DNA of 58,592 nt, filler included, from Sphacelaria rigidula (GCA_964200075.2; 8 parts of 8 records of this genome joined end to end with filler, not necessarily neighbours in it); one strand, 5' to 3'; shown: positions 3,801-48,833, counted from the first letter of the whole stretch. A program made the numbers and translations. Notes: generated by a model from the sequence alone, not told the origin.

Positions 3801-6800
3801 AAAACTCGTTTTCCTTCCCCCCTCCACTCCGTCTTGTCCGGCGAAGACCCGGCGTGCTCCGTCCCAGCTGTGCAGGGGACGGGTTCATAGGTACACCCCC
3901 GTCCCATGTGCTTCGTCTCGAAAGGGATGCGGGGTCAATGGTGAAACGACGAAGGCAAGCGACAAATAAGTAAGCCCCCTCACCCCCTCCCCCTTCACGC
4001 CCGCACCCCTCCCCCCGCCCGTGCGCAGGACCTCCCGACGTTCGGTGCCGACACAGACCTCCATGCCCCGATGATTGCCTCCGGCGGAGCGGAAGAAGAC
4101 GAAGCCGTGGTACCGGGCAGCATAAAGTCGATGGCTCCTACCATAGATTCTTCGTTCTGGCCTTTCCCGACTCCGGCCGTGTTCGACGAATCTGCTGCTG
4201 CCTTGGCCGGTACGGGGGGAAGTGGGGATTCTCCTTCTTCGCTCTTGAAGCAGGAGGTACGTACGCTCAGCCATTTTTCTGCTGGTGGTGGTCCGTTCGT
4301 TGTGGAAACACTATACCACTATATCACAAGAACAGGATAACTTTTTGTACATGTGTATTTTGGTATTTTTGACGGGGAAAGTAGGTTTTATCCTCTGTAT
4401 CTGTCCCTGTCTCTGCCTTTGTCTTTTTTTCTCGAAAGCTGCGTGTGCTTTGATTCAACGGGTTGATCGATCGATGGGTTGGTTCGTTCTGTCTCGTTTT
4501 GTCTTCGTGTCCGCCGCTTCGCATCCACACAGAACATGGTGGCGGGAGCAGGCAGGACAAGGATCTCCAACCCCGCCTCTGCCGCAGTCGGCCGCGACGG
4601 AATCATCACAACAGCAGGATCAACAGCGGCAGCCTCAGCATCGGAATCGGCGTCAGCGTCAGCGTCAGCGTCAGCGTCAGCGTCAGCGTCATTGTCTTTG
4701 GGCATCGGCTCGGGCGGAGGACTCGGAGTAATCGGTGGGCTATCGTCACGAGTTATCGGAACAACAGGAAGCGGGGCAGTGTCTCCATCCCGGGGTGGCG
4801 GACTCGGGGACTCGCCTCAACTCGCCAACGGGGCTCTCGTGGATCCGGAGCCTGAAATAGTTCAAGCGGCGGCAGCTAAGGCGGGCGGTGGCGGCGGCAG
4901 CGCTGTTGTTGAGGGAGGGAAGCAGCGATTGGCATGGGGCATGGGAGCGGTATCTGTTGGGTTTGTGGCGTCTGCTGATGCTGAGGTGAGTGCTTTTACA
5001 AGGATTTTGCCGGAGGGGGAGGGGGAGGGTACTCATGATTCGTAAGGGGGGATTCATGATTTTGCATGTCGTAGTTATAGGACCATTGGCCTCGTGTCCC
5101 TACAAATTCGGGGGAGCGGGAGGAATCTTCACCTCATATCTCTGTATATTTATATTTATATATATATGCCATATCCTTCAGAGGAAAACTCTACCGTAAC
5201 TTCACCAACCCCTTCTTCACGAGACTGTGATTTGGATGATGACCCTGGTTCGTTTCAGTACTATTATTCTCTCGTATTGTACCCAACTGTTATAGTTGAG
5301 CAGAGGAAGTTTATTAACCTTTACCCCGGCCTCCAACCGTCCATCAACCCGTCGAGCTAGTTCTTTGATCAGCTGCGCAGGATGTAGGCACCCTCTACTC
5401 CCCCCCCCGTCGCTCGCCACCCCATTCAAGTAGATGATATTATTATCAGACACCTCTCACCCCCCCGTCCCTTATAAACCAAATTTTCGCCGCTGTTGGT
5501 GTTCGGGATCGGGGTTGAAATGGTATTTGTTGTTTGTATCGTCATTGTTTATCGCGGTGTTGGTTCTTGGTACGTGTTGCTGGTATCACCATTGCCATTT
5601 GTTCTTGTGTCATCAGTCTCCGAGATGGTGAATAATATTTCTTGACGCCTGAGCATGCACTGCACTGGCACTGTACATACAGCGTACCGCAATTGACACT
5701 AGACACAAAATACGTTGATAAGATTTCACGATTGCGCTATTTGTTTCCACGTTGGATCGATGCCGGTCGCCCCGGTGGCTCAGTTGGTAACCTCGAAACC
5801 TTCTGACGGTTGGGTCGTGGGTTCGAACCTCGGAGCGATCTGGGATTTTTGCTCACACAGTGCCCAACCGTAGAGCGACTGTATCGTGGGTATAAAAAAT
5901 TAGACTTGACGGTCGACGAGGGAAAGGGACTGCTGAACCCCGCTCGCGACAGAAAATAAAGACAAGCACCGCAGAAGGAAGGTGGAGTACTAAAAAAAAA
6001 AACTCCTGTGTTGACCTTCCTCCTGTGTGACCCCGGCTGGTGAGTCCACACATACCGAAAGGTGTAGACCGACGCCCAGAATAAATGGGATGACAACACA
6101 ACACACACACACACACACACACTAGATGCTGTCACCTCCTTCCCTTAGAGTTGGCGTCGGTTGTCCACGATGCTGTAAAGCATGTCACTCGCTGTCTCTG
6201 CCAGGCGACCAGGTTGCCGTTTCTTTTTCGCTTGCGTTTTTTTTTTTGCGGTGACCATGATGGTGGTCGAGGCAGATCATATTGTGCGGGGTGGAGAAGC
6301 TCCGCCCCACGCAAAGCGGCTTGTCGTACTACGTCGTGTTCAAATGGTGAGACACCTATGAGGCAATGAAACGACACCTATGAGGCAATGAAATCGCGTG
6401 GCTATCCCTGGAAGTAGCGACGCCAGAAATGGAAGCAAGTCATTGGAGGGTGTCATTCGATATGCAAGATCCTTAGTACGTGGTACGTACACTTCGGGCC
6501 GAACAATCTTCATAGGATGCAGCTCACACTTTGTGCGACTCGCCGAAGAGATAATGGCGCTTCACGCTTGATGGTTGCGAGCGTGGCCCGGCGACGACCT
6601 GGCGTGCTCCGTCCCGGCCTTGTAGGGATGGGATGTCAATGATCCTATGACTGCGACATGCGAAATCATGAGTAAACCCCCCCCCCCCCCTCCCTTCCCC
6701 TCCTTCTCACCTTCCCGTACAGCTGGCTAACGCGTCGCCTTCATCGGACCAGGCAATGGAATCGGCAGCGGTAACGGCAACTGTAACGAGCAGTGACACA

Positions 6801-6971
6801 GGCTCGACGATAGGGGAAAGCTCTGCCTTGTCGGGGCTGACTGGTGGGATTCCTGCTCTAAAGCGGAGCGGAGTTGTAAGCGGAAGCGGAAGCGGATCCA
6901 ATGCAGAGAGTCCGTCGATCCCTCCGACAGGGAAGGCGACAGAGGGCAGGCCTGCGACACTCCAAAAGCGG
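877..6971 (+). CDS. Internal exons of an uncharacterised low-complexity (RG/RS/Gly/Ser-rich) protein; partial gene
   Basis: Five AG/GT-bounded exons with mutually consistent phases: 877-981, 1716-2772, 4029-4256, 4533-4985, 6723-6971. Translation is open across all junctions (RPPARDHRGRGRERE..., RGG/SRSRSRSP tracts, (AS)n from (GCGTCA)n at ~4650-4690). No recognisable folded domain. Confidence 0.7.
1088..1232 (+). mobile_element. Short dispersed non-autonomous repeat with CTAACCCT-like motif and GC-rich hairpin
   Basis: Perfect hairpin AAATCGGCGCC-CCA-GGCGCCGATTT at 1197-1221. Related copies at ~10355-10475 (-) and, weaker, ~11920-12020 (+). Confidence 0.5.
3049..3298. mobile_element. MITE (~250 bp), TIR G(G/A)CACTTTCTACGATAG, 4-bp TSD
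   Basis: TIRs gagtctttctacgatag / ctatcgtagaaagtgcc; flanks ctcc/cttc; internal sequence homologous to 8875-9135. Confidence 0.75.
3831..3973 (+). mobile_element. Two stacked end fragments of the C-run-anchored repeat family
   Basis: cccggcgtgctccgtcc... ending cataggtac-accccc (~3894), then cgtctcgaaagggatgcggggtcaatgg...aataagta-agcccc (~3973); acceptor AG at 4027-4028. Confidence 0.65.
5763..6121 (+). mobile_element. tRNA-derived SINE (tRNA-Gln(CTG)-like head, (CA)n tail), full-length copy
   Basis: A box TGGCTCAGTTGG 5776-5787, B box GGTTCGAACC 5820-5829, anticodon-like stem-loop aacc-TTCTGAC-ggtt, ~270-bp body shared with six other copies, (CA)n tail. Confidence 0.8.
6145..6675 (+). mobile_element. 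Long (~530 bp) copy of the C-run-anchored repeat family
   Basis: Homologous over its length to 45614-46081 (+) and 43049-43812 (-); ends atcatgagta-aacccccccc; contains an internal ~22-bp duplication at ~6350-6393. Confidence 0.75.
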
Positions 6972-8874: not shown

Positions 8875-9135
8875 GACACTTTCTACGATACCCCCCCCCT
8901 CCCCCCGCCTGACCAAAAAAACACAGCCCAAAACTGTCACGAAGGAAACGGCTGTATAGCGCCTGATGTTTGGTTTCAGGCTGCATTAAGCGCCTCATAT
9001 AGGCGACATAGGCGTAAATGAACGCAAGCGTTGGAATTCCCAGCTGCTCCTTGTGCCCGGCTTTCTACATTTCGATTTACGTGCTCTCTCCCAAATCAGC
9101 GACGTTTTGCGGGGCGGGCTATCGTAGAAAGTGTC
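8875..9135. mobile_element. MITE (261 bp), second copy of the CACTTTCTACGATA family
   Basis: TIRs gacactttctacgata / tatcgtagaaagtgtc; perfect 4-bp TSD CACA (8871-8874, 9136-9139). Confidence 0.8.
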
Positions 9136-9183
9136 CACATTTAAGAGGGAGGTTCTCCTTCTTGCCGGTATCTCGAGACTCAC

Positions 9184-11838
9184 CCGTTCGAGGTATGCTC
9201 CGCTACGGTTGATGTACATGGCGGGGAGAGCAACAGTCGACATCAATGTAAAGGTGCAGGCCAGGATGTACAGGACCTTGAAGTATATCACCAGTCCCTG
9301 GGTTGTGTTTTTGGTAGGCAGCCGAGAACAAGAGCACACGGGGTGCAAGAAAAAGCAGAAAGCAACCATAGCGATGAATAAATTATGTACATATTACTAG
9401 TACTGTACCTCTTGAGGGGTTTCCAACGGGATCCGGAAATGATGAGAGCACGGATGGGTCGATTTGGTTGATTGACTGCTGCACATCGACCACTCCACTA
9501 GGAATCTGGTCGTTGTGACCAGGTCGACGCACTAGAGATGAACAGGCAGGACACTCGCAACAGGAAACGCGAGGAAAGGGAATGGGGGGATGTACTCATG
9601 ATCATGCATGCCATTGTCATATGACCATTGATCTTGCACCCGTACCGAGCCGAGATGGAGCACGCCGGGTTCTCGCCGGACCAGGCTCGCACTCAATCAC
9701 CAAGTGCGAAGCGCCGTGATGCGTTCGGGGAGTCGCATGAATGATGAGTTGCATTCTGCTAAAATTATCCGGCCCGAAGTGTACTGATTATCTTGCATTT
9801 GGATGACAGCCTACAATGAGTTTCCGTCGATGAACCCGTCCTCTCTTCGTCGGGACGAGTCCGCACTCTCGAGTTATCCACCGATATCCTCCCCGATACA
9901 CGCCTCCTTACATTTTGGTCTCGCGGCTTGGGTCAGCACTCACTCTGGCACCGCGTCAGCTGTCGTCAAACAATCTCGGTCAACTACTTTTTTGTTTATT
10001 CACGTCCCCACGCCTTCGACAGTGGACTTCAACAGACACTTCGAAGGAAAACCGCAACGCATCGAAAATCGAACTAACGGTCTCTCCGCCCTAATGGTGA
10101 CAGTGAAGCCGTTACACCACCAGGGGGCGGCGACCATTGTTGTTGATAAAGAGCCCTTCAATATCTGCACAGGTATCCGTTCAATCTGTGACTTTTTCTA
10201 CAACACTTTGAGCCTTGAGGTCGTATCTTCACCATTTCAACGCCCATGCTTTCTGTTCCGAGATTTTCCCGCTGAGAGTCACACGAGATTTCTGGAAGAT
10301 GGCTTGTTGAGAGGAACGCTCAAGAGACATTGGCGATTGGCAGAAGTTAAGCTTAGCGCTAGGGTTTGGATTTGAGCTCTGTTGACGCACACCTTGCGTG
10401 GGACACCGTCTGCATCCCCTTTGTCTGATGTCCCTGTCCGCCTTCGGCTGGGGTGTGGGCCAGGATTAGCCTTCGAGCTTGACGGAAACGAAGTGTGCCT
10501 TGTTCAAGCTGTCGCTGGGTCCGCGTAAACCCGGTGCAATGTACCCCCTTACTGGTGAGCAATTCACGCATTTACGCGTCAAGAAAGTGAAACAAAGTCG
10601 TGCTCACTTCAGGATCTACAACTCACCACTTGCTCCTTTCAATGAATCTGGCATACATACACCAGCTTCCGCAAAGTGTAAGCCACATTAATGACAAATA
10701 CGAGTGTACGGGGGATGCACAGGGTACATGGATATTCTTCCACCTCGTCCTCCATTCTGGAGAGGTGTCCCCGGAATTTTTCAAGTGCAAAAGCTATAAA
10801 ACACACGCCCAGCAAGAACTTCAAGGCCGAATACATGTAATAACAGTTCACCCATGCCGCGTGGGTGAAAGGAAAAACACTGCGTATGCTGCTCAACTGA
10901 AAGCACGCTAGAGGTGATTTCTCCGTAAGTACAAAAGTTGCCACCCCTCCCCCTGATATGTGAGGCACCCATGAGGCAGTGTGGATCCCGTGGCTATCTC
11001 TGGAAGTGGGGATACCAGAGAATGAAGCAACCCATTATAGGTTGCCATCCATATGCAAGACAATCAGTACGCTTCGGGCCGAACAATCTTAGCAGGGTGC
11101 TGCTCATCCTTCATGCGACTCGCCGAGCACATCACGGCGCTTGGCGATTGGCGATTGGTTGCCAGCTTGGTCCAGCGACCACCCGGCATGCTCCGTCCCG
11201 GCTTTGTAGGTATACGACGTCAATCGTTACATGACTACAGCAGGCAGAATCATTAGTCCACCCCTTCCCCCCCCCTCCCTTCAGCAACCAACCCCTCAGC
11301 CAATGTTTCCCGGGTGCGGATAGTCATCAGATTCAAGATCCGATGTAGTCCGATAGCAAACCACTGCATATTGAGACGATTCGCCCTCGCTTCGCAAGAC
11401 CTCGGATCCCGCCACGCTCTGATATTCCACACTTGAGCACTTGCGGGCGAATAAAACACCGATCTGCGGTTTAACTTTCAAGACCACTCATGGACCAACA
11501 ATTCACCCGCAATGTGGTAAGCGATTCACCCACCCCACTCTGGCCAACAAGTCGTCCATTTGACAGCCAAGCACACAGTCACCCGTTTGGGGGCCAGACC
11601 TTTCCAATAACTGCTTTTTAATAACATTCACACGTCTGTGGAGGGCGCAACAAACAGCACACGACCGCGACCAAGCCCTCCCTACAACCCGTCTCACCAC
11701 GCCCAGTTCACCCAGCTCCTCGAAGGTGGTATCGAGCAGCGGAGCTTTTCCTCGCCGGTACTTTTCCGCCGCAGCCTCCTCCTTCGCCTTGTCCCTGTCC
11801 GGGGGGACCCACTGCTTATCTCGGTATGCGTCCCGACC
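9184..11838 (-). CDS. Two exons of a TMC/OSCA-like multi-pass membrane protein (N-terminal region); partial gene
   Basis: Phase-0 exons 11838-11698 and 9297-9184 (CAG acceptors, GTGAG donors) splice to ...WVPPDRDKAKEE...DTTFEELGELGV|GLVIYFKVLYILACTFTLMSTVALPAMYINRSG. This resembles the G-x-G-x-x-x-YF motif preceding TM1 in TMC-like/OSCA-like proteins. Confidence 0.6.
9591..9825 (-). mobile_element. Truncated copy of the C-run-anchored repeat family
   Basis: Reverse complement reads ...cttcgggccggataa...cccggcgtgctcc...gcatgatcatgagtac-atccccc; sense to the - strand host gene. Confidence 0.7.
10957..11260 (+). mobile_element. Truncated copy of the C-run-anchored repeat family
   Basis: Begins after ccccctcccctg, shares cttcgggccgaacaatcttagcagg and ccggcatgctccgtcccggc, ends atcattagt-ccaccccttccccc. 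Confidence 0.7.
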
Positions 11839-14447: not shown

Positions 14448-14574
14448 GGTGAGACACCCGTGAGGCAGTGTATAAGCTGTGGTTGTCTCCGGAGGTGACG
14501 ATACCAGAAAATAAAGCAACTCATTGTAGGTTGTCATCCAAATGCGAGATAATCAGTAGACTTCGGGCCCAACA
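14448..14574 (+). mobile_element. Fragment of the C-run-anchored repeat family (cut by contig end)
   Basis: Starts after cccccccttcccccccc; ggtgagacacccgtgaggcagtg...cttcgggcccaaca matches other copies. Confidence 0.7.
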
Positions 14575-29175: not shown

Positions 29176-29248
29176 GTGTGAATGTGTGTGTGTGTTGTCG
29201 TCCCATTTATTCTGGGCGCTAGTCTACCCCTTTCGGAACATGTGGGCG
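29175..29248 (-). mobile_element. 3' end of tRNA-derived SINE inserted in Gypsy integrase (cut by contig end)
   Basis: (TG)n-ttgtcgtcccatttattctgggcg...cccctttcgg is the reverse complement of ~6045-6120. Confidence 0.75.
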
Positions 29249-31181: not shown

Positions 31182-34100
31182 GGGTCGTGGCGGTGCGCGC
31201 AAAGGATTGCTGGCAGTAGTGCTGGTGTTGCCGCTCCCCTTCCGTACTTGGTTGATGTACACTTGTCGCATGTTAACACTACCATTGAGATGTGTGCTAC
31301 ACACGCCTCTCAACGCCAAAGAATTGCGGCAGTAGATGAAGGAATGCGGTGTGCTGAACTCAAATCCCGCCTTAATTTTTTCCAGTTTGTGGTGCGTGGT
31401 GTTCCTGAGCAACCTGTCTACCCGCCTCATTCGTAGAAGGCTACGGCTGTAGACGTCGGCTATTACAGCGATCTGCCCTCGAACTAAAATTGCTGGCAAG
31501 AATTTGTCACTTGTCTTCCCGACCGCAGCGGAATGGGTTCCCCCTCGCCCGCAAGGATGCCCTCGTCGGTATCTTTGGTTTATGGTGTCCACTTGCATGC
31601 TGCATATGGACACACACACATATATATGTATATATATATGCTGGTGATCGAGCAGCGCATATGCTACGATGGTACTCTGGCTTGTGACTCGCGGACGTAG
31701 GTCGACGAGCAGAGGGAGCTGGCTTTGGCTGAGATGCGGTCGCATCGAGAGTTCTCGCACCCAAACCTGATGCCCCTGTTGGACTGCGCCTTCGTGGGGG
31801 TTTCACAGGGCGAGGCGGCGTTCATGCTGTTCCCTTTCATGGAAGGTGAGGGACGAAAACACTTGGTAGGGCGTATCTCGACAAAACTCAAATTCGGAAT
31901 CGAAAAATGGAATCGAATTCGAGTTTCGGTGTCGATGTATGCGGCAGCTGAATCCGCAACCAGTAGCGGAAATGATTTCTCTGTCCCCCTGTGTGTGTGT
32001 GTGTGTCTCTCTCTCAGTATACATATATATATATATATAGAAGATTTGAGAGCCATGACGACGGATCAGCTTACAAATAACAGCCAGTCCGAGAGGCCCA
32101 ACCGCTGACAAGAGACAGTATCGCTGTCCCGCTAACCGTCGTTGTGACTGGCCTCACGGTAGCGCTCTCTCAGCCACGTACAGTGGCGCCTATTTTTCTT
32201 CGATCTTTCCACGAAAGAGGTTTGCAAATGACTGTTTTCTCAAAAACTGCGCAGTAAAAATGGTGCCGAAACTGTGCGCTTTGGGGCCGAACGGATTCCG
32301 TACAGAATCGTGTTTGCGTACGTTGTTGATGCCCGCCTAATATGAAACCAAAACGCACGGAATCGAAACATTCTTTTTATTCTGTTATAGTGCACCCCGA
32401 GTGTTTTGTCCCGTGTTTCCGCGTCTTTTTGGGGGGCGATATATACGCGATGCTGCATGCTCTGCAAATAGTGGGCACGCTTTGCATCTCGAAACGTCCC
32501 AAGCGCTGACACCGATGCGAGCTTTTATAATGTTCCACGATATACTGATGCACCTAGTTTCGATTCAGGGCATCAGTTTGGATTTACCCAAGGAAGGATT
32601 CGGAACATGGGAAGCAGTTTAGTTGCGGTACGGCGGGGCAAACAAGAAGTTTGTGTTTATTTTGATTCCGATGCCGATGAATTATTTGCCGTAAGATACG
32701 CTCTAACATGTTGTTTGTTTTTCGAGTTCAATTCCTACGAACCATGTGCTTGAATCGAGACCTCGGCTCTAAGTGGCAGCAAGTGATTCGTCGCCGCAAC
32801 CATGTGTAGTTGAGCCGAGTTGAGCGGTGTATCGCAGTCACTTCGGTGTCTGAGCTTAAATTTCTCTGTATAGGCACCAAGCCCGTGCGTGGTATGTGCC
32901 CCCACACGAAGAATCAGAAGACTACCAAATAACTGCCCAGCCTTTGCAGTAAAATGAGTATTATTGTGAGTACAACGGTACGGGTAGGGGGTTTCTGTGG
33001 CAGCCATGACGTCCGTCAACATGCCATAAACTTTAACACGTACTCGCGCGACGTAGATTTGATGATTTCTATCGGAAGCTCTAGACAGGAGGAGCAACGT
33101 CTTGTTTCGCACCGGGGCTTGATTCATGATGCCGAAGGTGACATACACCCTTTCCAGACCATCTATGGTAGGTGCTCACGCGCACCACCACCTACCTGTT
33201 ATCCTGGCCCTAGATCGCCATCCCTCCTAATTCCTTGTGCTGAGATAGCAGAATAACCGACGTTTTCAAGATGAGATAATTCCATAGCCACAATAAGTTG
33301 CACCCCGAATTTCAACTCCATGGAAATAACTACCCCAGGACGCAATATGGGTATATTGGGTCGGCTGTAGATGCTTCATGCTGGTCACGCTAGAAATCGT
33401 CAAAAACCTCCGAGCGCAGACGGGGGGGCGTGGGTTCGAATCTCGGTGAAGTCACACGGTCTGGGATTTTTTTCTCGCATCATGCCCAACAGTGGAAAAT
33501 GACCATGTCGTGGGCACACAAAATTCGACTTCACGGTCGACGAGAGAAGGGGCCGCTGAACTCTTCGCGCGATAAAGAGAAGGACAAGCACCGCAGAAGG
33601 GAGGTGGGGTATCTTTTCTGGACGCCAAGCCTACACCTTACGGTACTCGAGTAGAAAAATTAACCATGGCTCGAATCATCCCCCCCTCTGCCCTTCTCTC
33701 CATCCAGATCCACGTAATGATATCAAGAGATACTACCGCGCTTGCTCTATGCAACGTACCAAAGTACCGAGACAAGAAGTGGTCATGGAGGATATTTCAT
33801 GCTGTGACTGGTTTCGGTGAACATCCGTTACCCACGTGTGTGCTGCAGTGGGTAAAATTGGATGGGAAAAATCTTTGAACACGCAACAGCGAACATGCTC
33901 TATAGCCAAATATTGTATGTCTCCCGAGCTTCTCTTGGACTACTTGATCAGATGCTTCATCTGGCCTCCAGAATTGTGAAGATACTTCTTTCCAACGCTT
34001 TCCTAGGCTCGTGACGAGGACAACACATACACCCATACACGATGCCTTGTGGCACCATATGAAAGCTAGAGACTACATCAAAGGCTGTCCTACTCCCACT

Positions 34101-36684: not shown

Positions 36685-36791
36685 GGGATGCGCGGTCAAT
36701 CGTCTGATCACTAGGGCATGCATGTTCATGAGTACCCCCCCCCCCTCTGCTCAATGGTGTGATGACTATGGCATGCATGATCACGAGCACC
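36685..36791 (+). mobile_element. Two head-to-tail end fragments of the C-run-anchored repeat family
   Basis: gggatgcgcggtcaat...ttcatgagta-ccccccccccc, then tcaatggtgtgatgactatggcatgcatgatcacgagca-cccctcccc. Confidence 0.7.
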
Positions 36792-37299: not shown

Positions 37300-38272
37300 A
37301 GGATGTTAGGCCGGATGTTATGGTTCACAGATTTTTGACCCACGGACTCTTCGCTTCTGGGGCGATTGAGACGGTTTTTCACCGCCAAACTGGAAATATC
37401 GTCAACACACGTCTTGGACACTTTGCATCACCGTGCAGACAGGAGCCTAGCCCACTTTTCAGATTTGCTCGGCTCCAAGGTGTATCAAGAGCGGCCTCTG
37501 AACAGTAGCCCGTGTGCAAAGCAATCTGCGGCGATCTCCACAGACTACGCCGGATGTTATGGCAAACTGATTTTTGGCCCACGGATTCTTCAACGTAGAG
37601 ACATTTGACCCCCCTATTGTCCCCTAAACAGGGAAAATCGTCAACACACGTGTTGGACACTTTTCATCACCCCACGGAGAGAAGCCGAGCCCATTTTTCA
37701 GATCCGCTTGGCTCCGAGGTTTCAAGATTGGCCGCTGAACAAAAATTCGTGTGTGAAAATCCGTGCTTGCTGACCCCCGCTAGTTCGCACAATATTCTAC
37801 GGAGATCGCCGTGGATTTGTTTGCGCAAGGATTTTCATTCGGCGGCCGCTGCCCAAATGTTGGAGTCAAGCGAATCTGAAAAGAGGCCTACATTCCTCTC
37901 TGCACGGTGATGCAAAGTGTCCATGACGTGTGTTGGCGATGTTCCCTGTTTGGGGGTGAAAAAGTGGCTCAAACGCCAACAAAGTTAGCCGTCCGTGGGA
38001 CAAAAATCTGTGTGCCACAACATCCGACCTCTACTGGGCAATGTGACGGGGACCGACAAGCACAGATTTTCCCACACGACTCACTGTTCAGCGGCCAATC
38101 TCGAAACGTCGGAGCCAAGAGAATCTCAAAAGCGGGCTAGGCTCCTCTCCGCTGAGTGATGCAAAGTGCCCAAGACGTGTGTTGGCTATTTTCCCTGTTG
38201 GGGGGTCACACAGTGCCACAAACGTCCAAATGAACAATCCATGGGCCAAAACTCTGTTTGCCATAACATCCC
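37300..38272. repeat. Composite foldback: four ~240-bp units arranged as two forward then two inverted
   Basis: Units start ccggatgttatgg at ~37311 and ~37550 and contain cgtcaacacacgt.ttggacacttt; their reverse complements lie at ~37800-38028 and ~38045-38272. Confidence 0.75.
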
Positions 38273-40380
38273 GCTGGATGGCAACACATTCGTTTGTCCC
38301 CATATTTTTTATTCCCGGTCAAAGAAACCCGCTGCAAATTTCGGGTCGGGAACGATCTCATGCCAGCACAGAGATTTCCATACCACCAAGTTGCGATAAT
38401 TTGTTTACCCCCACAAGAGGTTCGAATTTCATGCGTAGCGTGTTTCAACAGCTCACAGTCCCGCAGGTGTCTCATGTGTTGTGGCGTTCTGTAGTGATGT
38501 GGCGTCACTGCCGTAGAGAGGTCATCACCACCCCACGGACACCAGTGCACACGCGGCCATTCGGCTGCCCCGCTTAATACATAGTTTCCGGTCAACTTCT
38601 CCAACCCCCAGAGGAATCGAAGGCCTCCAGAGGACGCGCGGCCCTCTGCGTAGGCGGGTCGATTCAGAAATCGGGCTGGGCGAGATTCGACACAACATAC
38701 TCCAGGCGTCGACCGCCACAGGATCGGTGCCGGTTGTTTACTGAAACTTTGCGAGGAACCCCGCTAGGTCGCCATGCACCAACAATGGCGGAAGACGTTG
38801 ATTCGTGCTTATATGAGTTTGATTATTGCTTTCATATTTCACTTGTTGAGGCGAGTTTACGAAAGCAGACACCATACGTCCATGACAACGCCCATACTTC
38901 TACAAACAAAACAACAAATGAAAGTAGCCTCCATCGGGGCACCCCGGGCAATCAAGACCGCAATTATTTTATCTCGTTTTATTTTCCCAGCAAGCTGCCC
39001 CCGCACCAAGAAGGCAGGCGCCCACAGAGGCTCGTGAAGAACCACCTTCATGAACTGACGAAAGTGCGCGGCAGACCATGCCACAACCATCATTCTCTAC
39101 TCATGTGTCGAGTAGCACGTCGCAGTCCCACGGTGAGGTGAGACGGCGAAGGTCATGGCACAAACGCGAGAAACGTCACGCCGGCCGCGTAAGAGTTGGA
39201 CGCTGATATCAGACACGAGCATGCTGCGGGTCCTCACAAAACCTCGCAGCAGACACGACGTTTCCAGCTTTTCTCGGCGTTCAACGGTGGTCCGCATCGT
39301 CCGAAGTTCCCACTCTCAACAAGACTGTACTCGAAGATACTACGAGCACATGACGAAACCAAGGAACATATTCCACTGTGGAAACTCGTGCAGGAAGCCC
39401 AATTTCAGGGCCGAAAAGAGGCCCTTTATTCACACCGAAATCGAGGCTAATATATGCTTTTTTATTCAGACACCTTTGGGACAAGGGAAGCGCGGGAAGT
39501 TCCCCAAACAATTCTAGGGAGGTCGGGAAGGATGACGTCGTCCAGCAGATGGAAGTAATTTGTCATCACTAGAGGTCAACGAGATCAATACTTTCAACTA
39601 GAACCAACCCCATGTTTTCGTTCAAACCCATTTCTTACAACCAGATGCCATGACCGCGGCCATCTACCGGTGACATATGCGCGCGCCCCTAGGAACGGTG
39701 TTGAGGCACCGACGGTGGATACCACAGCCATACAGCCCAAGGCACACAGCGCCGGGAAATATGGCCTTGATGCTGACCCAACCATTCAATATGACAACAC
39801 GCATTTTCCCCCTACACGGATCCATCTCCGCGGTGGAGACTCTGTAGGGTCCAACGATGTCCCCGAAAACAATCGCGCCACCGCGGCTTCGTCAAACCAG
39901 GCGTGAGCACCAGAGGATCAAAACGTAACGGACGCGAAGCGACATGATCTTCCCATGATTCGTGGGATATCGAGTATATCTCAACGTGTATAATGCGGTG
40001 GTTTTGTGTCAAATCACCAAACTACTTTGTTAATGGACCGCAGCATGTCGAGATCGGAGCGACCTCATCATAGGGGTGCGCAAATATTAACCGATCTTAT
40101 AATCTTGGGCCGAAGCCCTTTACATCGTTGAGAATGTGACTCACGAATACTTTAGAATACGCAATGAATACTATTCCCCCACCATCCCCTGATGAAAATG
40201 AGTGAACTTCGTGAAAGGGTCGACGACGTAACCCATGTAGCCGTACACGTTGGATCAATGACAGCTTATGAACCTAACGAAATGTTGCACAAGGCGTTAA
40301 CCCAACCATCGCATTGCGCATTGTTGGCACAGGGTGAACCCGCCACAAGGCCGACCGACGTACCGGGAAGTAGTTACCTT

Positions 40381-41487
40381 ATCACGGGTTTGGTAAACCA
40401 GCCATACACACCCATCGGCTAAATATACGGAATGCTGCTGCGGGACATGAGAGATACGACCACACAAATATTCAGTCGAGTGATGTCGAAGGAAATGCTG
40501 TCGTTCATGACACCGACGTCTCACGCACAGGAGCTTCGCTTTAATACTGTACCCCATAAGTTTATCGTGATCTACGGCACAAGATGTGCGCACACACGCC
40601 ACAGAGAGAACAGTCATCGCCCCATCAGGTCTTTGCTGCGGCAGCCATCACGCCACAACCAAAACGATAACAAACAACGCCGCCCCTACTAATATCCCCA
40701 TGTGTGTGGTGGAGGGCTCTGAACCACGTTCATTTTCATGAGGCACCAGCCTGCTGCAAAATCGTTCCTCAGCGTTTGCGACGGAATCGCATAACCTCTG
40801 GAGTCATGACACATAGTTTTCACGCCGGAGAGTCAACCGAAATCCCAAACCACTACCGCCTAATCACGGGTTTGGTAAACCAGCCATACACACCCATCGG
40901 CTAAATACACGGAATGCTGCGGGACATGAGAGATACGACCACACAAATATTCAGTCGAGTGATGTCGAAGGAAATGCTGTCGTTCATGACACCGACGTCT
41001 CCCGCACAAGAGTTTCGCTTTCATACTGTACCCCATAAGTTTATCGTGATCTATGACACGAGGTGTGCGTACACACGCCACAGAGAGAACAGTCATCGCC
41101 CTATCAGGTCTTTGCTGCGGCAGCCATCACGCCACAACCAAAACGATAACAAACAACGCGCTACCAATATTCCCATACATGTCATGGGCGCTGAACCATG
41201 TGCGTTTTCATGAGGCACCAGCCTGCTGCAAAATCGTTCCTCAGCGTTTGCGACGGAATCGCATAACCTCTGGAGTCATGACACATAGTTTTCACGCCGG
41301 AGAGTCAACCGAAATCCCAAACCACTACCGCCTAATCACGGGTTTGGTAAACCAGCCATACACACCCATCGGCTAAATACACGGAATGCTGCGGGACATG
41401 AGAGATACGACCACACAAATATTCAGTCGTGTGATGTCGAAGGAAATGCTGTCGTTCATGACACCGACGTCTCCCGCACAAGAGTTT
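40381..41487 (+). repeat. Tandem repeat, ~475-bp unit, about 2.3 copies
   Basis: atcacgggtttggtaaaccagccatacacacccatcggctaaata starts at 40381, 40863 and 41335 (periods 482 and 472). Confidence 0.92.
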
Positions 41488-41984
41488 TGCTAAGCAATCA
41501 CAGACCCACAACGGGTTTGACGAACCAGTCGTGGACGCTAGACCATGACAAACCAACAAGCGACGCGCGAAATAATTTAATAACTTATTTCATGGGTTCA
41601 ATGTCAACGTTCATAACATGCCGTATTTCCACTCATTAAGTTCGCTTTGTTTACACAACAAGCGCCGCACCGCCCGCGCCGCTTCAATTGACCCCAAATA
41701 GTAGGTTTACAAAGCAGCGGCAGCCAATAGCATATATATTGCGATGCTACTCGCAGGCCTGCGCCGCGGGCGCTACGAGGTGGTTGATGTGCTCCACGAA
41801 AGCGAAAAGATTAAAAATGCGATACAGCAGCCGATCGGCCCAGCGACTCAGATTGGTTCCCGCGACTGGAGCGTGAGTCCGATTTTAGGAGCAATCTTAA
41901 AAGTTTGATGACTCAATGCCCGACTGCGAAGCTTATACCCTGGACGGGCGAAACTCGAGTGAATGGTGGACGACGGAAACGCAC

Positions 41985-42175
41985 TACTGAACCCCCATCG
42001 CGAAAAAATAACACCAAGCACCGTAGAAGGAAGGTCGGTGGAAACCTAAAGTATCCGACATTAAAACATAATTTTGTGCTGACCGCCTTCTTCCTGTGTG
42101 ACCCCGGGTGCTGCGCGCACTAATAGCAAGGGATGACGTGCGGCGCCCGGAATAGAACGGGCGACTACACACACT
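41985..42175 (+). mobile_element. 5'-truncated tRNA-derived SINE copy
   Basis: ctgaaccc...caagcaccgtagaaggaagg...ttcctgtgtgacccc...cgcccggaataga...acacacac matches the SINE 3' half. Confidence 0.65.
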
Positions 42176-43048
42176 GCGTTCTACACCCCGATGCCGATCG
42201 CGCTTGATAACACCCAGCGTGACCCATCCATACCCCCCCCGTCCCCCCACCATCCTCCCTGGCCGCTCGTTACCAAATACTCGATATAAAAGACAGCATC
42301 GTTGCATGGCTATGGGCGGAGGCTGGTGGCCCGGAACTGACCTTTATCCTCACAGTCGAACTCCGATACGAATACGACATTAAGCTATTCGTTGACATCG
42401 ACGAGTGAGCCGTTCCGCCGGTATAATTCAAATACAAGAAATAGAGACAACAACGGACGCAACATATATACATCACCTGTACATAACTCGACTCCATCCC
42501 ATCCTCTGACCCCCCCCCCCCGCACACACACACACCACGCACACACACACTAGACACGAATTCGCCAGACGAGAAGTGGGCGGAGACTTGGAGGCGGGGA
42601 ACATATGTAAGGTTCCGTCCACCACATACTGCATGATCGTCGATGGAGTGCCCCCCCCCTCCCGCGAGACTCCCATCACTCCGGAACTGCGCAGGCCATT
42701 ACTGTCCGTGGAAGTGACCCAGCAAAAAAAAGCGAAGAAAATCATTAGTTTTCCCACCCTCACGCAAGATAATCACCTTACTCCTGGCCGAACAAACTTT
42801 GCACGTTGCACGTATCCCTTCATACGACCCGCGTAAGACACCACTGCCCTTCCATCTTATTGATGGATGGCGACACCACCGACCCTACCACATCCAGGGG
42901 TATCACATGCCGGCATCGTAACGACGCGGCGTTGACACACAGTTCGAATGCAATATCATGAGTACACTGCGACGACACTGGTTTGGCAAACCAGGAAAGG
43001 AAAAGAGTAGATGAGGGAGGGGAGGAGGGGGGTGGTGTTGGTGGGGGG

Positions 43049-43812
43049 GTAGTGATGATCATGGGTGCCATAGTCATCAAACGATTGACCTCGCATCCCG
43101 ACGAAGCCGGGACGGAGCACGCCGGGTTTTCGTCGGACTAGAGTTGCACCCAAGTCACCAAGCGTGACGCGCCGTGGTATGTTCGCCAAGTTGCTTGAAG
43201 GGTGGACTGCATCCTGCTAAAGAGTGATGCTACGGTAGGGGTGCACGATCACTTCCTGGGCGGAGAATTGTTAGGAGCCCTTTCTCTCATCCAAAACACG
43301 ACTTGTGAAAATAAGTGAGAGCACGCCAAAACAACCACTCTAATGAGCTGCGGATATCCCGAATGAATTTGTCAACGGGGATGCCCCGACCCATACTCTT
43401 GTGCATCTGGAATTGTTGGGAGCCTCTGAACCAGACACGATTTCGTGCAACATGTTCACCCCTACCGTAGCATTGCTCGAAGATTGTTCGGCCCGAAGCC
43501 TACGGGTTGTCTCGTATGGGGGGATGACAGCCGACAATGGGATGCTTAATTTCCTGGTATCGCCACCTCCAGATACAGCCACGGCTAACATGCCGCCTGT
43601 TGGGTGTTTCACAAATAAAACACCAGTGCGATCATCCCCATTGCGCGGAGTCGAGGTTCTCCCACGCCGCACAACATGGTCTACCTCGACTACCACCATG
43701 GTAACCACAATAAAAAACGCAAGCGCGCAAAACAAAATCGGTAACCTGATTGCCTAGCATACGCTGTGAGTCTCGTGTTCTATAGCGCCAACGCCAACCG
43801 ACGCCAACCCTA
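43049..43812 (-). mobile_element. Long copy of the C-run-anchored repeat family, interrupted by a MITE
   Basis: Reverse complement matches 6145-6675 and 45614-46081; G-runs on both sides. Confidence 0.75.
43222..43478. mobile_element. MITE (257 bp) with GAG...CTC termini nested in the above repeat
   Basis: TIRs gagtgatgctacggtaggggtg / cacccctaccgtagcattgctc. Flanks taaa/gaag; the empty site in sister copies reads ctgc-TAAG-attg, consistent with a decayed 4-bp TSD. Confidence 0.8.
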
Positions 43813-43843
43813 TCGAGAGGGAGGGAGGGAGGGGGGGGGGGGC

Positions 43844-43908
43844 GTACTCAAAATGTTGCTTGCCTTAGTCATTTGACCATTGACCACGCGCACCTTTCGA
43901 GACGGGGC
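43844..43908 (-). mobile_element. Short end fragment of the C-run-anchored repeat family (variant subfamily)
   Basis: Reverse complement ccgtctcgaaaggtgcgcgtggtcaatggtcaaatgactaaggcaagcaacattttgagtac-gccccccc; matches ~3905-3973, ~45195-45263, ~47945-48007. Confidence 0.7.
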
Positions 43909-43920: not shown

Positions 43921-44020
43921 NNNNNNNNNNNNNNNNNNNNNNNNNNNNNNNNNNNNNNNNNNNNTTAATTAATTAANNNNNNNNNNNNNNNNNNNNNNNN
44001 NNNNNNNNNNNNNNNNNNNN
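43921..44020. other. Artificial contig-joining linker
   Basis: N44-TTAATTAATTAA-N44. Confidence 0.97.
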
Positions 44021-44160
44021 CAGTGGTCTGATGACTATGGCATGCATGATCATGAGTACACCCAACTATTCCCGTTTTCCTCTCCACCCCCGCCTGCCCC
44101 ATGCGCACTCCAACTCATCCCCCGCCCCCCCGAAACTGGAACTTGATGCAATTTAAACAG

Positions 44161-47100
44161 ACGGAGAGGCGCGGCTCTCCGCGGAACTACACGGCCGCGA
44201 GGTTGGCGCAAGAGGAACACGGAGAGATGGCCCTTTGCACCTTCAAACCAAACCTTTCCGCGACAGCGAGCAGGTGAAGAATAGTGGCAGGAGGACGATA
44301 GTGGCCGCTATAAACGTGAAACGAACCCACGCGGGTGCTCATCGGTCGAGAGTGACAGTTGGAATCATTTGAAGACGACGGATACGAAAGCAAAATACAG
44401 AAAATGAGTTGTTCATGCAGGAGTCCACTACTTTGACAGCTAACGCGCACAACCCGTCCGTTTCCCCCCCGATCATCGGGACACATGGAACAACATTCAG
44501 TGGAAGGTAAGCGCACAGGCAAGGTATATTTCTTTTTTCCGCCATCATTTGAATCCATTCCCTTCCTCGAGACGAGTTCGCAAACTCGGGGGATTAACTC
44601 ATCTTTCCCTGTACCCGCCGAACACTTCGATGTCGCGGGTTGGACCAGCATTACTCCTGGAAGCGCGTCGACGCCGATATAATGTTTTTCGACCACTTCG
44701 GTTCCCACGATTTCACCATCGTAACCAGATGATGCCACGAAGTAATCGTACATGTCGCGGTTCGAAGCCACAAGCTGACGCCCTGGCCGGGTAAAATAGC
44801 CTTGAGCTGATCGGATCACGGGGGCGCGGCGGCGAGTAGAATACAACGAAACTCGAGATCTTCATGAAGGAGCACGAACTCCAAAAAGAAGTATAGAATC
44901 TGAAAATTCTAGTCCAACGTGTTGCGACCCATGCAACACGACGTGGCGTTGAATGCCGGCATGAACAACAGGGATCAAAATCGTTCTCGTCTGTTCGTCA
45001 TGCAGCAGAAAAAAATATTCCAATAAAATATGGTTCTACTCAGTATAGTAGTGACCACCGTCGTAGTAGCGGGGATAACGATGGTACGGCAAGTCATTAC
45101 CTAAAGTTCAAACGCAGTTTGACGCCTGACCAATCGTAATGACAGTAAATACATGTTCAAAATGCACATTTACCATCCTCGCGCCTCCGCTCCATCGGTG
45201 TTCCGTCTCGCAAGGCATGCATGGCCAATGATCAGCCAACCAAGGCGAGCAACAAATGAGTAACCCCCCCCTGCCCCCTCCGCTCCATCGCACCACCCGC
45301 GGAACCTGGTCGTTGCGTCGTCTTGTTTTGATAACCGTCGAAGTCCCTTCAAGGCGGAGGGACGGGGAAGGCCCACATTCCAGACCCTGTACGAAGCCCG
45401 CGATGCTAAATCAATACTCAAGGCCCGCCAGGTAAAGCGTGAGGGGACTAGGAGTACTTCATCACGATCCACGCAGTAGGACAGTATAATGCACGATTTC
45501 CTCCGGTAACAGACGGTCATAAAAACATTGGGCCCAGCTTTCCTTCCCCCCCTCAGCCTGGTCCGGCGAAACCCCGGCGTGCTCCGTCCCGGCTGTGTAG
45601 GGACGATCCCCCTATGGGGTTGGCGTCGGTTGGCGATGACGCTGTAAAACACGCCACTCACTGCGTAAGCTAGGCAACCAGGCTACCGGGTTTGTTTTGC
45701 GCGCTTGCGTTTTTTTGCGGTAACCTTGATGGTAATCGAGCGAGATTATGTTGTGCGGCGTGGGAGAACCTCAATTCCGCCCAAAGGGGATGATCATACT
45801 ACGCAGTGTTTACATGGTGAGATACCCATGAGGGAATGTGAAACCCGTGGCTGTCTCTGGAAGTGGTGATTCCAGAAACGAAGCAACTCATTGGAGGCTG
45901 CCATCCATATGCAAGATAAATCAGTAGGCTTCGGGCCGAGCAATCTTAGCAGGATGCAGCTCACCCTTCATGCAGATTGATTGTGAGTCTGGTTCGGCTC
46001 AAACCCGGCGTGTTCCGTCTCGGCTATGTAGGAATGCGAGGTCAATAGCCCTTTGACTATGTCAAACCAGATCATGAGTACACTCGCCCCTCCCTCGACC
46101 GCCTCCTCTCATGTTTTTTCCTTCACGTATTACCGCCAATACGGTGTAATATTTGTTTCTTGTTTTGGATTTCTTGTCTCTCACTAGGATATGATGAAGG
46201 AATGCACGTTCCGTCCGAAATTAGACTCGCACAAAACCCGGCTAGGACGCAGCTTGAGCCCTCGGAGGGGCAGGGGCGAGGTGTTCGATGAGCTCTTCAA
46301 GGATGCCAAGTTCCAGACTTTTGCCAGAGCACAGGTAACCAGACGTTCCTCGCTCTGAAGGAATGATATTATATTATAGATGAAGAACATTGTCGATAAA
46401 ATATCGTGCCATTAACATCTAATTAGAGCATACTTCGAAGTATATATATATATACACACACAGTGTACACCACAGGCCCACAGCACAACACCACATAGAC
46501 TACTGTCAAAGGGACGACTGTATGAAATGCGTGACCGCGCAAAGGTCTTTTAGACGGATGTAAATGACAGGTCGGAGCAATAGTGATGCTAATATCTGAG
46601 GCGAGCATGCATGTGCTGACGAGTCAGACGCTAGCTTCGTGTGGTGCTATTTTGTTTTGCAGCTTATGCTAAGTATTCGCAGTATAACTGTCATGCTAGG
46701 CACAGCTTTTTATCCTTTCTCTACAGTGTCTTTCCTTCAAGGTGTTTCCGCTCATTTACCTGGGCTACCTCTACCGTATCTCCACCACAACGGCTCGATT
46801 ATTTCTCAATCTCATAGATCACGAAACGCGAAACCATAGGGAACTTTCAATAAGCACTGGAAGACGTTCAGTCCGTCGAGTTTGTCGGGTTTAGATTTGT
46901 GCCAAATTTGATGAGCTATAATATCTACTCTAGATGCCAAGTTTTTGGCACATGCTCGAGACGAAGTCGTCCAGGCACTTACTAACTAGGAGCATCACCA
47001 CTTCTGAACGCTGACGGTGGAAATGGTGTGTGTATGTCAGACAGACAGACAAACAGACGGATAGACGGACAGATAGATGGACAGATAGATGGACAGACAG

Positions 47101-47182
47101 ACAGACAGACAGACAGACAGAGAAGGGACCAGAAAGGTGACGAAAAACAGTACATCATTTGGGACGACCGAGCAACACTGAC

Positions 47183-47236
<54 letters not shown>

Positions 47237-48833
47237 AAAATATCTCACTGATCCGAGTGTTTCTTTTTCCGTACGCAACGAATGCAGTAGTCTACCCGAT
47301 TTGTATATGTGTTCCTGCTCTTCTCTACCTGACGAAACATTTCCAACTATAATCGCCCCTTCTCTCTGGCTATCTCTCTGTCTCTCTGTCTCTCTCTGTC
47401 TCTGTGTGTCTGTCTGCCAGTCTGGCTGTCTTCTCTCCTCGCCCCCTTCTCAAAATACCATATCATCTCCCTACTATGATATCAATAAGTACGATCCAGC
47501 TCAATGAGCCTGGACTGAAACAGCTTGTCGCAAGCCTTCCCCATTTTCGTCACATGATTGGGAAAATAAAGTTATGCCCAATACACCCCGCGAGCGAGTT
47601 CGTGCGCGGATTACCCGGAGGGCTCAGCTAGACCGCCTCGCGGTGGTCGTGTTGGGTTGCCTCCCCGAGCGTTCGTACATCTTGGCTAGGGGGGATGTCG
47701 GAGTGTCCCACGAAGCCCCCTCTTATGTTAACACGATCAAGTTCGTGTAGTCCATGCGCCGCCCTACTTTGAACAGCTTCAGTCCCGGAGCTTGGCCCTA
47801 CAGCCTCTCGAGAGTGTACCGTAGGTAAAGTCAGGTATCAGATTTTTGAACACACATACGCAAGTGACAGGTATTTTTTTCATTCTTTGAGAAAAAAACA
47901 CAATCCTACTGGAATCTCCCCCCCCTCCCCCCCCCGAAAGAGATCTCCGTCTCGAGAAGGATGCGTGGTCAACGGTCAAGCGACTAAGGCAAGCAACGAA
48001 TGAGTACGCCCTACCCCTCCCGCGCCTTTCTCCCCCCTTCCTGCCCCACTTTGCTTGCACGGCCACTGCGTCAGAGCGCTGAGAAGTTGCAGGCATCCGA
48101 GTGCCCCTTCACGCCCGACATGATGAAGAAGCTCCGCTCTCCTTGCGGTGAGCGGATCACTCGCGAGGATAGTGACGAAACCGTGGGGTCAACCGAGGAC
48201 GAATTGCCCCTGCCGTGCCCTCCGGCGAGCACCTCGCAGACGGGCGGTGGAAACGATGCGGGGAACGACACCGAAGATGGCGAAGGCGGCGGGCGGGAGA
48301 AAACAAGTCACGCTGAAACAAATGATAGTGCTGGGGTCAAGAGTGATGGGGCTACTGCCGATGCTTGTGGTTGCACTGGTAGCGGCTCTACTCGGGACGA
48401 AACGGTGGTCATCACTCAGAACAAGACAGAAGAGGGTACCGTTGCTCAGGAAGGTGCTGTTTCGGGTACGAAAGGGTCCGAGAAAACGACTGGCGCCGGG
48501 GAAAAGGGTGGTATCGCCGCCGAGGAAGAAGGTGGTACCTTTCCCCAGAACCCGGGTACCATCAACCCCAAGATTGAGGGTATAAACCCCGAGGATGAGG
48601 GTACTACCCCCCAGAACGCGGGTACTACCTCTCAAAACGAGGGCTTCGAACCCCAGGCCGAGGCCACCACTCCCCAGACCAAGGAAGGTACCCCGCCAAT
48701 CGAGGGAGCTACCCCCCCGAACGACGGGACTCCCTCCCCAAGCGAAGGCATCATCCTTCAGGAAGAAGGTAGTATTGCCGAGACAGAAGGTACTGCCGAC
48801 GAACAGGCTAACCCTTTCACTTCCCCGGAGTAA
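44161..48833 (+). CDS. 3' exons of an uncharacterised protein with repeated CxFxP motifs and an acidic 7-aa-repeat tail; partial gene
   Basis: Phase-consistent exons 44161-44273 (LCTFKPNL), 45344-45431 (TFQTLYE), 46188-46334 (ECTFRPKL...VFDELFKDA), 48075-48833 (ECPFTPDM...stop TAA). Confidence 0.75.
45553..46081 (+). mobile_element. Short fragment plus long copy of the C-run-anchored repeat family in an intron
   Basis: cccggcgtgctccgtcccggc fragment (45553-45607), C-run, then long copy 45614-46081 ending atcatgagtac-actcgcccctccc. Confidence 0.75.
47036..47236. repeat. (GACA/GATA)n and (GT)n microsatellites
   Basis: Direct read (~47036-47120 and ~47186-47236). Confidence 0.9.

What the first reader, a model, noticed from the sequence alone, without database searches (positions are those of the whole stretch)
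3831..48007. One-ended mobile element family anchored to poly-C runs (fixed ...ATGAGTA|CCCC end, variable other end)
Seen: about 14 pieces in four independent contigs: 3831-3894, 3905-3973, 6145-6675, 9591-9825(-), 10957-11260, 14448-14574, 36685-36735, 36750-36791, 43049-43812(-), 43844-43908(-), 44021-44060, 45195-45263, 45553-46081, 47945-48007. Complete ends share a ~65-bp terminus GGGATGCG.GGTCAAT.GT...GACTA.GGCA.GCA...ATGAGTA joined directly to a C-rich run. The other end varies (about 50 to 530 bp) and usually also abuts a C-run. I see no TIRs, no poly-A tail, no tRNA head and no clear TSD. At least two subfamilies share the terminus, and pieces stack head-to-tail at the same C-run. A fixed end with variable truncation fits target-primed reverse transcription or one-ended rolling-circle (HUH) transposition. 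I do not recognise a described family with C-homopolymer targeting, so this is the best candidate for an undescribed system here.
Basis: partly seen in the sequence, partly recalled or inferred. Interest (0 to 1): 0.75.

Follow-up and report, generated by a model that had tools for sequence, protein, structure and literature searches.

The report
Brown-algal LINE retrotransposon targeting C-runs
These repeats are the truncated tail ends of a copy-and-paste retrotransposon and of its shorter hitch-hiking partner, both inserting at runs of C; the same kind of pair is already catalogued in the brown alga Ectocarpus, so this is ordinary.

Summary
The repeats are real: all 14 listed pieces are recovered, plus 3 missed ones, and a C-run follows 122 of 160 complete 3' ends (background 1.4%). 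The family is not undescribed. Subfamily B's 65-bp terminus is the last ~20 codons and TGA stop of a single AP-endonuclease/reverse-transcriptase ORF. Three single genomic copies carry nearly the whole ORF up to the terminus; intact relatives end the same way; Ectocarpus homologues are 52-71% identical. Subfamily A is a ~560-bp non-coding partner with a defined 5' end whose tail is 82% identical to B's. Target-site duplications of 9-21 bp starting in the C-run exist (10 of 24 unbiased copies; shuffled 0.2), so the C-run is mostly target, duplicated at insertion, which explains stacking. This is target-primed reverse transcription by a LINE. It matches the published notes on Ectocarpus RTEX-1/2_Ec32 and RTEX-N1_Ec32 ((C)n 3' end, C-rich TSD, 60-bp shared tail). 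The RTE-X label is inferred; no labelled reference could be compared. HUH and Penelope-like readings fail. One oddity: 13 of 25 B insertions are only 60-65 nt long.

The parts
1368..1455 (+).
   Evidence: profile hit; tblastn of P0003 aa 1316-1344, E 3.6e-4
3831..3894 (+). Subfamily A: 5' head only (unit positions ~2-46) with a short remnant like the 3' end; probably an internal deletion
   Evidence: deletion is inference
3905..3973 (+). Subfamily B: terminal ~65 bp (last ORF codons and decayed stop), followed by C-run; stacked behind the previous piece
5030..5118 (-).
6143..6674 (+). Subfamily A: near-full copy (unit 55-557), followed by C14
9593..9825 (-). Subfamily A: 5'-truncated copy (unit 329-557)
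10957..11260 (+). Subfamily A: 5'-truncated copy (unit 260-556), C-rich runs on both sides
14448..14574 (+). Subfamily A: starts at unit 259 after a C-run; cut by the contig end
36685..36734 (+). Subfamily A: 3' end, cut by the contig start; followed by C11
36750..36789 (+). Subfamily A: ~40-bp 3' end inserted at the C-run of the previous copy; an ~11-bp C-led duplication flanks it
   Evidence: read by eye; tandem seen
42664..42964 (+).
43049..43817 (-). Subfamily A: near-full copy (unit 53-553) interrupted by a nested insertion
43222..43478 (.). Nested 257-bp MITE-like insertion with 25-bp terminal inverted repeats (22 of 25 matching); not part of the family
   Evidence: read by eye
43846..43908 (-). 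Subfamily B: terminal ~63 bp, stacked upstream of the A copy across a shared C-run
44021..44058 (+). Subfamily A: 3' end, cut by the contig start
45184..45197 (+). Left copy of the 14-bp target-site duplication of the B piece at 45198
45198..45262 (+). Subfamily B: terminal ~65 bp encoding the last 20 residues and the stop
   Evidence: tblastn aa 1341-1360, 70%
45277..45290 (+). Right copy of the 14-bp target-site duplication, preceded by a C-run
45553..46080 (+). Subfamily A: full-length copy (unit 1-557, one internal deletion), with the 5' head repeated near the 3' end
47945..48006 (+). Subfamily B: terminal ~62 bp; translates to the last ORF residues and TGA

Best explanation
The pieces are insertions of one non-LTR retrotransposon (B; 4.6 kb or more; a single ORF of about 1,330-1,400 aa with AP endonuclease, RT and a C-terminal CCHC-like motif) and of a ~560-bp non-coding partner (A) that carries a homologue of B's last ~65 nt. 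SHOWN: the ORF runs to within 5-6 nt of the element's 3' end; the 3' end is fixed; 5' ends are truncated; insertions are flanked by 9-21-bp duplications that begin in a C-run; A and B share the tail. INFERRED from known LINE biology: the protein binds the 3'-terminal ~65 nt of the RNA (stringent recognition); the AP endonuclease nicks the G-rich strand at a G/C run; the freed 3'-OH primes reverse transcription; synthesis usually ends early; a second nick 9-21 nt away gives the TSD. Because the TSD copies the C-run, every insertion regenerates a target on both sides, which gives the head-to-tail stacks. A is moved in trans by B's protein. The pair corresponds to the brown-algal RTE-X elements and their non-autonomous partner.
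For: B termini extend upstream into RT-coding DNA. 11 of 16 AP-endonuclease hits in the genome belong to this family by DNA similarity (4 plus a fifth partner form an RTE-type family, L115 and L123-L126). Single copies cover database protein P0003 from aa 1, 13 or 16 to aa 1360 and end at the terminus (L109, L131, L129). Pfam RVT_1 and Exo_endo_phos hits. Best solved structures are L1 ORF2p. Two metagenome contigs hold unbroken frames of 1,253 and 1,426 codons ending in the same peptide, TGA, five bases and a C-run. TSDs: 10 of 24 unbiased B, 19 of 57 all B, 5 of 20 A, against shuffled means 0.2, 0.8, 0.3. Left C-run longer than right in 12 of 24 TSD copies, shorter in 9, equal in 3. A/B tail identity 54 of 66 aligned bases. 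A has no stop-free frame over 56 codons. Ectocarpus homologues 52-71% over the RT piece, 11 of 18 hits. Published notes on RTEX-1/2 and RTEX-N1_Ec32 match.
Against: No intact ORF was seen in this genome: among 150 scored of 2,700 candidates the longest frame was 627 aa with stops inside, so present activity is not shown. TSDs were not called in 38 of 57 B and 15 of 20 A copies, and a stricter exact test gave only 6 of 136 (shuffled 0.4). A's mobilisation by B is inferred from the shared tail only; A's tail resembles a sister Ectocarpus family in places, though no such family was found here. No labelled RTE-X sequence could be compared, and the RT tree is a quick tree. No filled/empty site pair was available. 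The proposed 3' hairpins have no folding or covariation support.
Confidence: 0.93

Rival explanations
1. Chlamys-type Penelope-like element and its non-autonomous derivative: GIY-YIG endonuclease plus RT, (C)n targeting, pseudo-LTRs and a 30-40-bp tail.
For: Many Chlamys elements target (CA)n and (C)n and form partial tandems (PMC8557442 section 9); Ectocarpus has Chlamys families. A has a ~47-bp head repeated near its 3' end (46 of the first 47 positions identical) and forms tandems.
Against: The ORF joined to the terminus has an AP endonuclease and a LINE-type RT. The only GIY-YIG hit in the genome (1 of 1 candidate) lies in an unrelated gene-dense stretch with no terminus in its locus. The Ectocarpus Chlamys-1 is noted with an (A)n 3' end.
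Confidence: 0.02
2. One-ended rolling-circle (HUH/Helitron-like) transposon with a fixed terminus.
For: Fixed end with variable other end, and tandem stacks.
Against: Variable-length TSDs are present; the terminus is the end of an RT-encoding ORF. An HUH-family search was not run.
Confidence: 0.01
3. Same LINE, but the C-run is mainly an element-encoded or RT-added tail, and insertion is not C-targeted.
For: The right C-run is longer than the left in 9 of 24 TSD copies, and the TSD starts 9-21 bases after the terminus in several. All examined intact relatives end in C-runs (2 of 2).
Against: C-runs are also strongly enriched upstream of 5' junctions (77 of 145 against 1.9%), the TSDs themselves begin in the C-run, and the left run is as long or longer in 15 of 24. 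A few added or templated Cs remain possible.
Confidence: 0.1
4. The 60-65-nt pieces are a separate mini-element transcribed and moved on its own, not truncated LINE copies.
For: 13 of 25 uncensored unbiased B copies are 60-65 nt, none 51-59 or 71-86; no simulation of three smooth null models reached 13 in a 6-nt window (0 of 5,000 each). Several sit directly between TSDs.
Against: Their 5' ends vary over six positions, they have no head of their own, smaller clusters occur at 37-40 and 87 nt, and the cluster sits on a C-rich patch that can pair with the C-rich target (1-4-base overlaps visible). A fragmented assembly under-represents long copies.
Confidence: 0.12

Closest known systems
RTEX-1_Ec32 and RTEX-2_Ec32 (Ectocarpus RTE-X LINEs; PMC12477816 Supplementary Material 3, read)
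   Same: Single EN-RT ORF, (C)n 3' end, C-rich TSD, thousands of mostly truncated copies (1,849 and 3,007 for RTEX-1a/b). Ectocarpus sp. proteins fall in the same RT clade and end in the same or a similar peptide.
   Different: Consensus lengths there are 5.5-5.9 kb; here 4.6-4.7 kb was traced and the true 5' end was not fixed. Copies here are decayed. The Ec32 sequences (.fa supplements) could not be read, so identity to these families is untested.
RTEX-N1_Ec32 (non-autonomous, 604-607 bp; same source)
   Same: Non-coding, about 600 bp, head of unknown origin, 60-bp 3' end 83% identical to the autonomous element (here 82%), C-rich TSD, can be tandem, very abundant.
   Different: Here ~560 bp with a ~47-bp head duplicated near the 3' end, a feature not in the Ec32 notes; no homology between A's head and B's 5' region was found, whereas weak homology is noted for Ec32.
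RTEX-1 of Saccharina japonica (PMC4421812, passages read)
   Same: An RTEX family reported from another brown alga.
   Different: No termini or targets are given in the passages read; no sequence comparison made.
Stringent LINE/SINE pairs sharing a 3' tail (PMC3747384, passages read)
   Same: Partner borrows the LINE machinery through a common 3' sequence; common in the RTE clade.
   Different: A has no tRNA head or Pol III boxes; the shared tail is coding sequence in B; no poly(A) or short-repeat tail.
Chlamys Penelope-like elements (PMC8557442)
   Same: (C)n targeting, 5' truncation, tandem stacks.
   Different: GIY-YIG endonuclease and PLE RT, against AP endonuclease and LINE RT here.

Membership tests
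Non-LTR retrotransposon (APE-type LINE) | AP endonuclease N-terminal to an RT in the ORF joined to the terminus | tested here: met
Non-LTR retrotransposon (APE-type LINE) | Fixed 3' end, 5' truncation, no LTR or TIR | tested here: met
Non-LTR retrotransposon (APE-type LINE) | Variable-length target-site duplication | tested here: met
   19 of 57 B copies against shuffled mean 0.8; 6 of 136 under a stricter exact test
RTE-X clade | RT groups with labelled RTEX references | not testable with these tools
   No labelled reference available; the quick tree shows only a 100-support clade with Ectocarpus proteins, far from the genome's RTE-type LINE (27.6% identity)
RTE-X clade | ORF1 (esterase or other), present in some RTEX elements per PMC3905857 passages | tested here: not met
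   No second stop-free frame of 200 codons or more on the sense strand of L206/L207. Not required: the Ec32 RTE-X families are also single-ORF
Ectocarpus-type RTEX-1/2 | Single EN-RT ORF, (C)n 3' end, C-rich TSD | tested here: met
Ectocarpus-type RTEX-1/2 | DNA identity to the Ec32 consensus sequences | not testable with these tools
   .fa supplements unreadable; two terminus motifs gave 0 hits in the five text supplements, which show no sequences in the parts read
RTEX-N1-like non-autonomous partner | About 600 bp, non-coding, ~60-bp 3' end ~83% identical to the LINE, C-rich TSD, tandems | tested here: met
   557-559 bp, longest frame 56 codons, 54 of 66 identical; TSD 5 of 20; tandems
SINE in the strict sense | Pol III promoter (tRNA, 5S or 7SL head) | tested here: not met
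   No Rfam family at the A copies, no tRNA, no A/B box by simple pattern
Chlamys Penelope-like element | N-terminal GIY-YIG endonuclease | tested here: not met
Chlamys Penelope-like element | Pseudo-LTR / partial tandem | tested here: inconclusive
   A has a ~47-bp repeated head; none was seen for B
Helitron / HUH rolling-circle element | No TSD | tested here: not met
Helitron / HUH rolling-circle element | HUH-Rep protein | not tested
   No HUH family search was run; the linked ORF is APE-RT

The most novel reading that the evidence does not exclude
This LINE lineage has a built-in short product: about half of its insertions are bare 60-65-nt cassettes, exactly the segment that the non-autonomous partner kept and that is also the last 20 codons of the ORF. 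That would mean a programmed stop of reverse transcription, or a dedicated ~65-nt RNA, in an element with almost no 3' UTR, no poly(A), and an AP endonuclease tuned to G/C homopolymers. It would be the smallest self-seeding retro-cassette of its kind and a clean system for mapping stringent RNA recognition.
Probability: 0.25. Interest if true: 0.45.

Novelty: new member of a known kind. Interest (0 to 1): 0.2.

Why it matters
It removes a candidate for an undescribed mobile system: the family type, its C-rich targets and its 600-bp partner are already in a curated brown-algal library. What remains useful is modest. The junction statistics suggest the C-run is target, not tail; the recognition signal overlaps the end of the ORF; and the 60-65-nt pile-up is a testable question about where target-primed reverse transcription stops. 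With roughly 20,000 ends in this genome, the family also matters for annotation and for why contigs break.

Tried and rejected
Penelope-like (Chlamys) reading: my first lead, from (C)n targeting and A's repeated head; dropped when the linked ORF proved to be APE-RT. Hammerhead ribozyme or other Rfam family in A: 3 weak hits in the window, none on a copy. 3' hairpins: single-strand folds were not better than shuffles (z -0.13 to -1.82 for the 4 references that covered the terminus; 2 of 6 references were mis-specified and folded flanks); the 5-bp stem showed 0 compensatory pairs in 25 distinct rows; the upstream hairpin was not testable on that alignment. A second autonomous family with an A-type tail: none among 94 scored of 3,790 candidates, best identities 35-56%; unscored candidates remain. 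Homology of A's head to B's 5' region: none. First TSD test with profile-defined boundaries and exact matches: weak, 6 of 136; repeated with anchored boundaries and one mismatch. Telomere-like bases at 5' junctions: 3 of 86 rows from 2 loci against 0.3% background, too few to claim. The careful RT tree did not finish; only the quick tree is reported. Earlier scan findings: none returned. Literature searches for a mechanistic study of C-run targeting or of this truncation pattern found none (listings only; the library lacks most subscription journals and Repbase Reports). No unbiased locus set was obtained for A, so its 5'-end and TSD counts come from similarity-chosen and chance loci.
Full report
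Window. The 58.6-kb window is eight unrelated contigs of about 7,237 bp joined by N-linkers. The source genome G000 has 244 Mb in 27,214 contigs. The nearest named homologues of the element's protein are from Ectocarpus, so the host is probably a brown alga; this is inference.

Observation. Exact terminal 20/21-mers occur 4,424 (B) and 2,215 (A) times, reversed controls 0. In twenty 10-kb contig starts chosen without regard to the repeat there were 18 3' ends, which extrapolates to about 22,000; this is rough and probably high because contigs often break at repeats. Among 164 distinct complete 3' ends, 122 of 160 readable ones have five or more C within 15 bp (background 1.4%), and 77 of 145 5' ends have such a run within 20 bp (background 1.9%).

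Subfamily B is a LINE. Searching with the window's 47936-48008 piece gave copies whose upstream DNA is shared for more than 1.5 kb and codes for a non-LTR reverse transcriptase. A genome search for the retrotransposon AP endonuclease gave 16 hits; 11 are this family and 5 a separate RTE-type LINE. The RT piece finds 18 database proteins, 11 of them from Ectocarpus sp. at 52-71% identity, and intact unnamed proteins of 1,360 and 1,328 aa with endonuclease and RT domains. Three single genomic copies cover P0003 from residue 1, 13 or 16 to residue 1,360 on one strand and end at the terminus, each broken by stops and frameshifts (L109, L131, L129). The window's B pieces match the last 15-20 residues, and 47944-48009 translates to those residues and TGA. 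So the conserved ATGAGTA contains the stop codon, and the 3' UTR is 5-6 nt. Two marine metagenome contigs have unbroken frames of 1,253 and 1,426 codons that end the same way and run into a C-run (4 loci from 175 candidates). The closest solved structures are L1 ORF2p, then R2. No intact ORF was seen in G000 (150 scored of 2,700 candidates).

Subfamily A is a non-autonomous partner. Full copies are 557-559 bp with a defined start, no frame over 56 codons, no Pol III boxes, a ~47-bp head repeated near the 3' end, and a tail identical to B's at 54 of 66 aligned bases. Copies are 76-94% identical to the majority sequence. No second autonomous family closer to A's tail was found among 94 scored of 3,790 candidates, so B is the likely driver (inference).

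Junctions. With profile-defined boundaries and exact matching, TSDs were called in only 6 of 136 copies (shuffled mean 0.4). With anchored boundaries and one mismatch they were called in 10 of 24 unbiased B copies, 19 of 57 B copies overall and 5 of 20 A copies, against shuffled means of 0.2, 0.8 and 0.3 (copies with N or short flanks were left out: 74 B and 26 A were examined). They are 9-21 bp and begin in the C-run; the window has a 14-bp example around 45198-45262. The left C-run was longer than the right in 12 of 24, shorter in 9, equal in 3, so no long added tail is needed. Since each insertion duplicates the C-run, it leaves two new targets, which explains the stacks.

Mechanism. Target-primed reverse transcription: the protein binds the last ~65 nt of the RNA, nicks the G-rich strand at a G/C run, primes cDNA there, usually stops early, and a second nick gives the TSD. 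The domain content, fixed end, truncation and TSDs are shown; binding, nick position and trans-mobilisation of A are inferred from known LINE/SINE pairs (PMC3747384, passages). Hairpins in the tail are possible by eye but unsupported.

Comparison with what is known. The Ectocarpus TE paper (PMC12477816; passages; Supplementary Material 3 part 1 of 3; supplement searches) lists RTEX-1 and RTEX-2_Ec32 as single EN-RT ORFs with a (C)n 3' end and C-rich TSDs, and RTEX-N1_Ec32 as a 604-607-bp non-autonomous element with a 60-bp 3' end 83% identical to them, found in tandem. That is this system in all features that could be compared. The paper's sequence files could not be read, and they bear directly on membership. 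An RTEX-1 is also reported from Saccharina (PMC4421812, passages). A quick RT tree of 45 rows (42 chosen from the proteins returned, 3 from G000) puts two G000 fragments with P0003, P0059, P0006 and the Ectocarpus protein P0042 at support 100, far from the genome's RTE-type LINE, but holds no labelled RTE-X. So 'works like, and is, an APE-type LINE' is tested; 'is RTE-X' is inferred. Chlamys Penelope-like elements also target (C)n (PMC8557442; abstract, passages and section 9), but the GIY-YIG test fails. PMC11203168 and PMC3905857 were read as passages only.

What is left over. Among 25 uncensored B ends not chosen for length (28 examined, 3 censored), 13 are 60-65 nt, none 51-59 or 71-86 nt; three smooth null models never reached this (0 of 5,000 each). 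The length equals the segment shared with A. Microhomology with the C-rich target at a C-rich patch of the element is the plain explanation; a programmed stop or a separate short RNA is not excluded. I found no paper on this or on the mechanism of C-run targeting in the searches run.

Verdict. A real, abundant and largely decayed LINE with its non-autonomous partner, of a kind already catalogued in brown algae. New member of a known kind; interest 0.2.

Noticed in passing
window 5763-6122 (+); also 50747-51085, 51357-51510(-), 33425-33611, 41956-42176, 29174-29248(-), 58417-58543(-): A second repeat family of ~350 bp with tRNA-like A- and B-box motifs at its head and a (CA)n tail: a probable SINE. 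27 hits in fetched loci, 5 in the 200 kb of unselected contig starts. ARAGORN calls no tRNA. [quoted passage not shown] No shared tail with the RTE-type LINE loci was found.
   Followed up: partly
window 43222-43478: 257-bp MITE-like insertion with 25-bp inverted repeats nested in an A copy; flanks are compatible with a decayed 3-bp TTA-type duplication.
   Followed up: partly
L140-L144 (e.g. L143:1317-3671, minus): A separate RTE-type LINE with a 785-aa open stretch holding endonuclease and RT; 27.6% identical to B over the RT.
   Followed up: partly
L208:~3100-3150 and C-termini of P0069-P0095, P0116: Distant relatives (38-55% protein identity) keep the short motif at the ORF end that lies in the shared tail here (peptide like CVVNG or CEVNG); in L208 the matching DNA is followed by TA-rich sequence, not a C-run. 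Suggests an old recognition motif with changing targets.
   Followed up: no
L180 and L182, 5' junctions: Telomere-like TTAGGG bases between the TSD and the element in two loci (3 of 86 rows; background 0.3%).
   Followed up: partly
L061 / L077 (G000 contig C4, ~36-46 kb): Gene-dense, apparently intron-free stretch with a small GIY-YIG gene; looks like giant-virus DNA (impression, not tested).
   Followed up: no
L132:62-3689 (+) and 3803-6688 (-): Two long B copies facing each other, the second lacking its 3' third.
   Followed up: no
window 40377-41491: Tandem array of a 472-bp unit, 2.3 copies, 94% matches.
   Followed up: no
window 37307-38274: Four ~200-240-bp related segments in direct and inverted arrangement, like the subterminal repeats of a DNA transposon.
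   Followed up: no
window 3076-3299 and 8919-9136: Another dispersed repeat (79% over 225 bp) that also begins right after a C-run in both copies; a similar start follows C-runs in L110 and L194.
   Followed up: no
L133:6361-8001 (minus): 547-aa open frame of tandem ~37-aa Cys/His repeats resembling EsV-1-7-type zinc fingers (label recalled, not tested).
   Followed up: no
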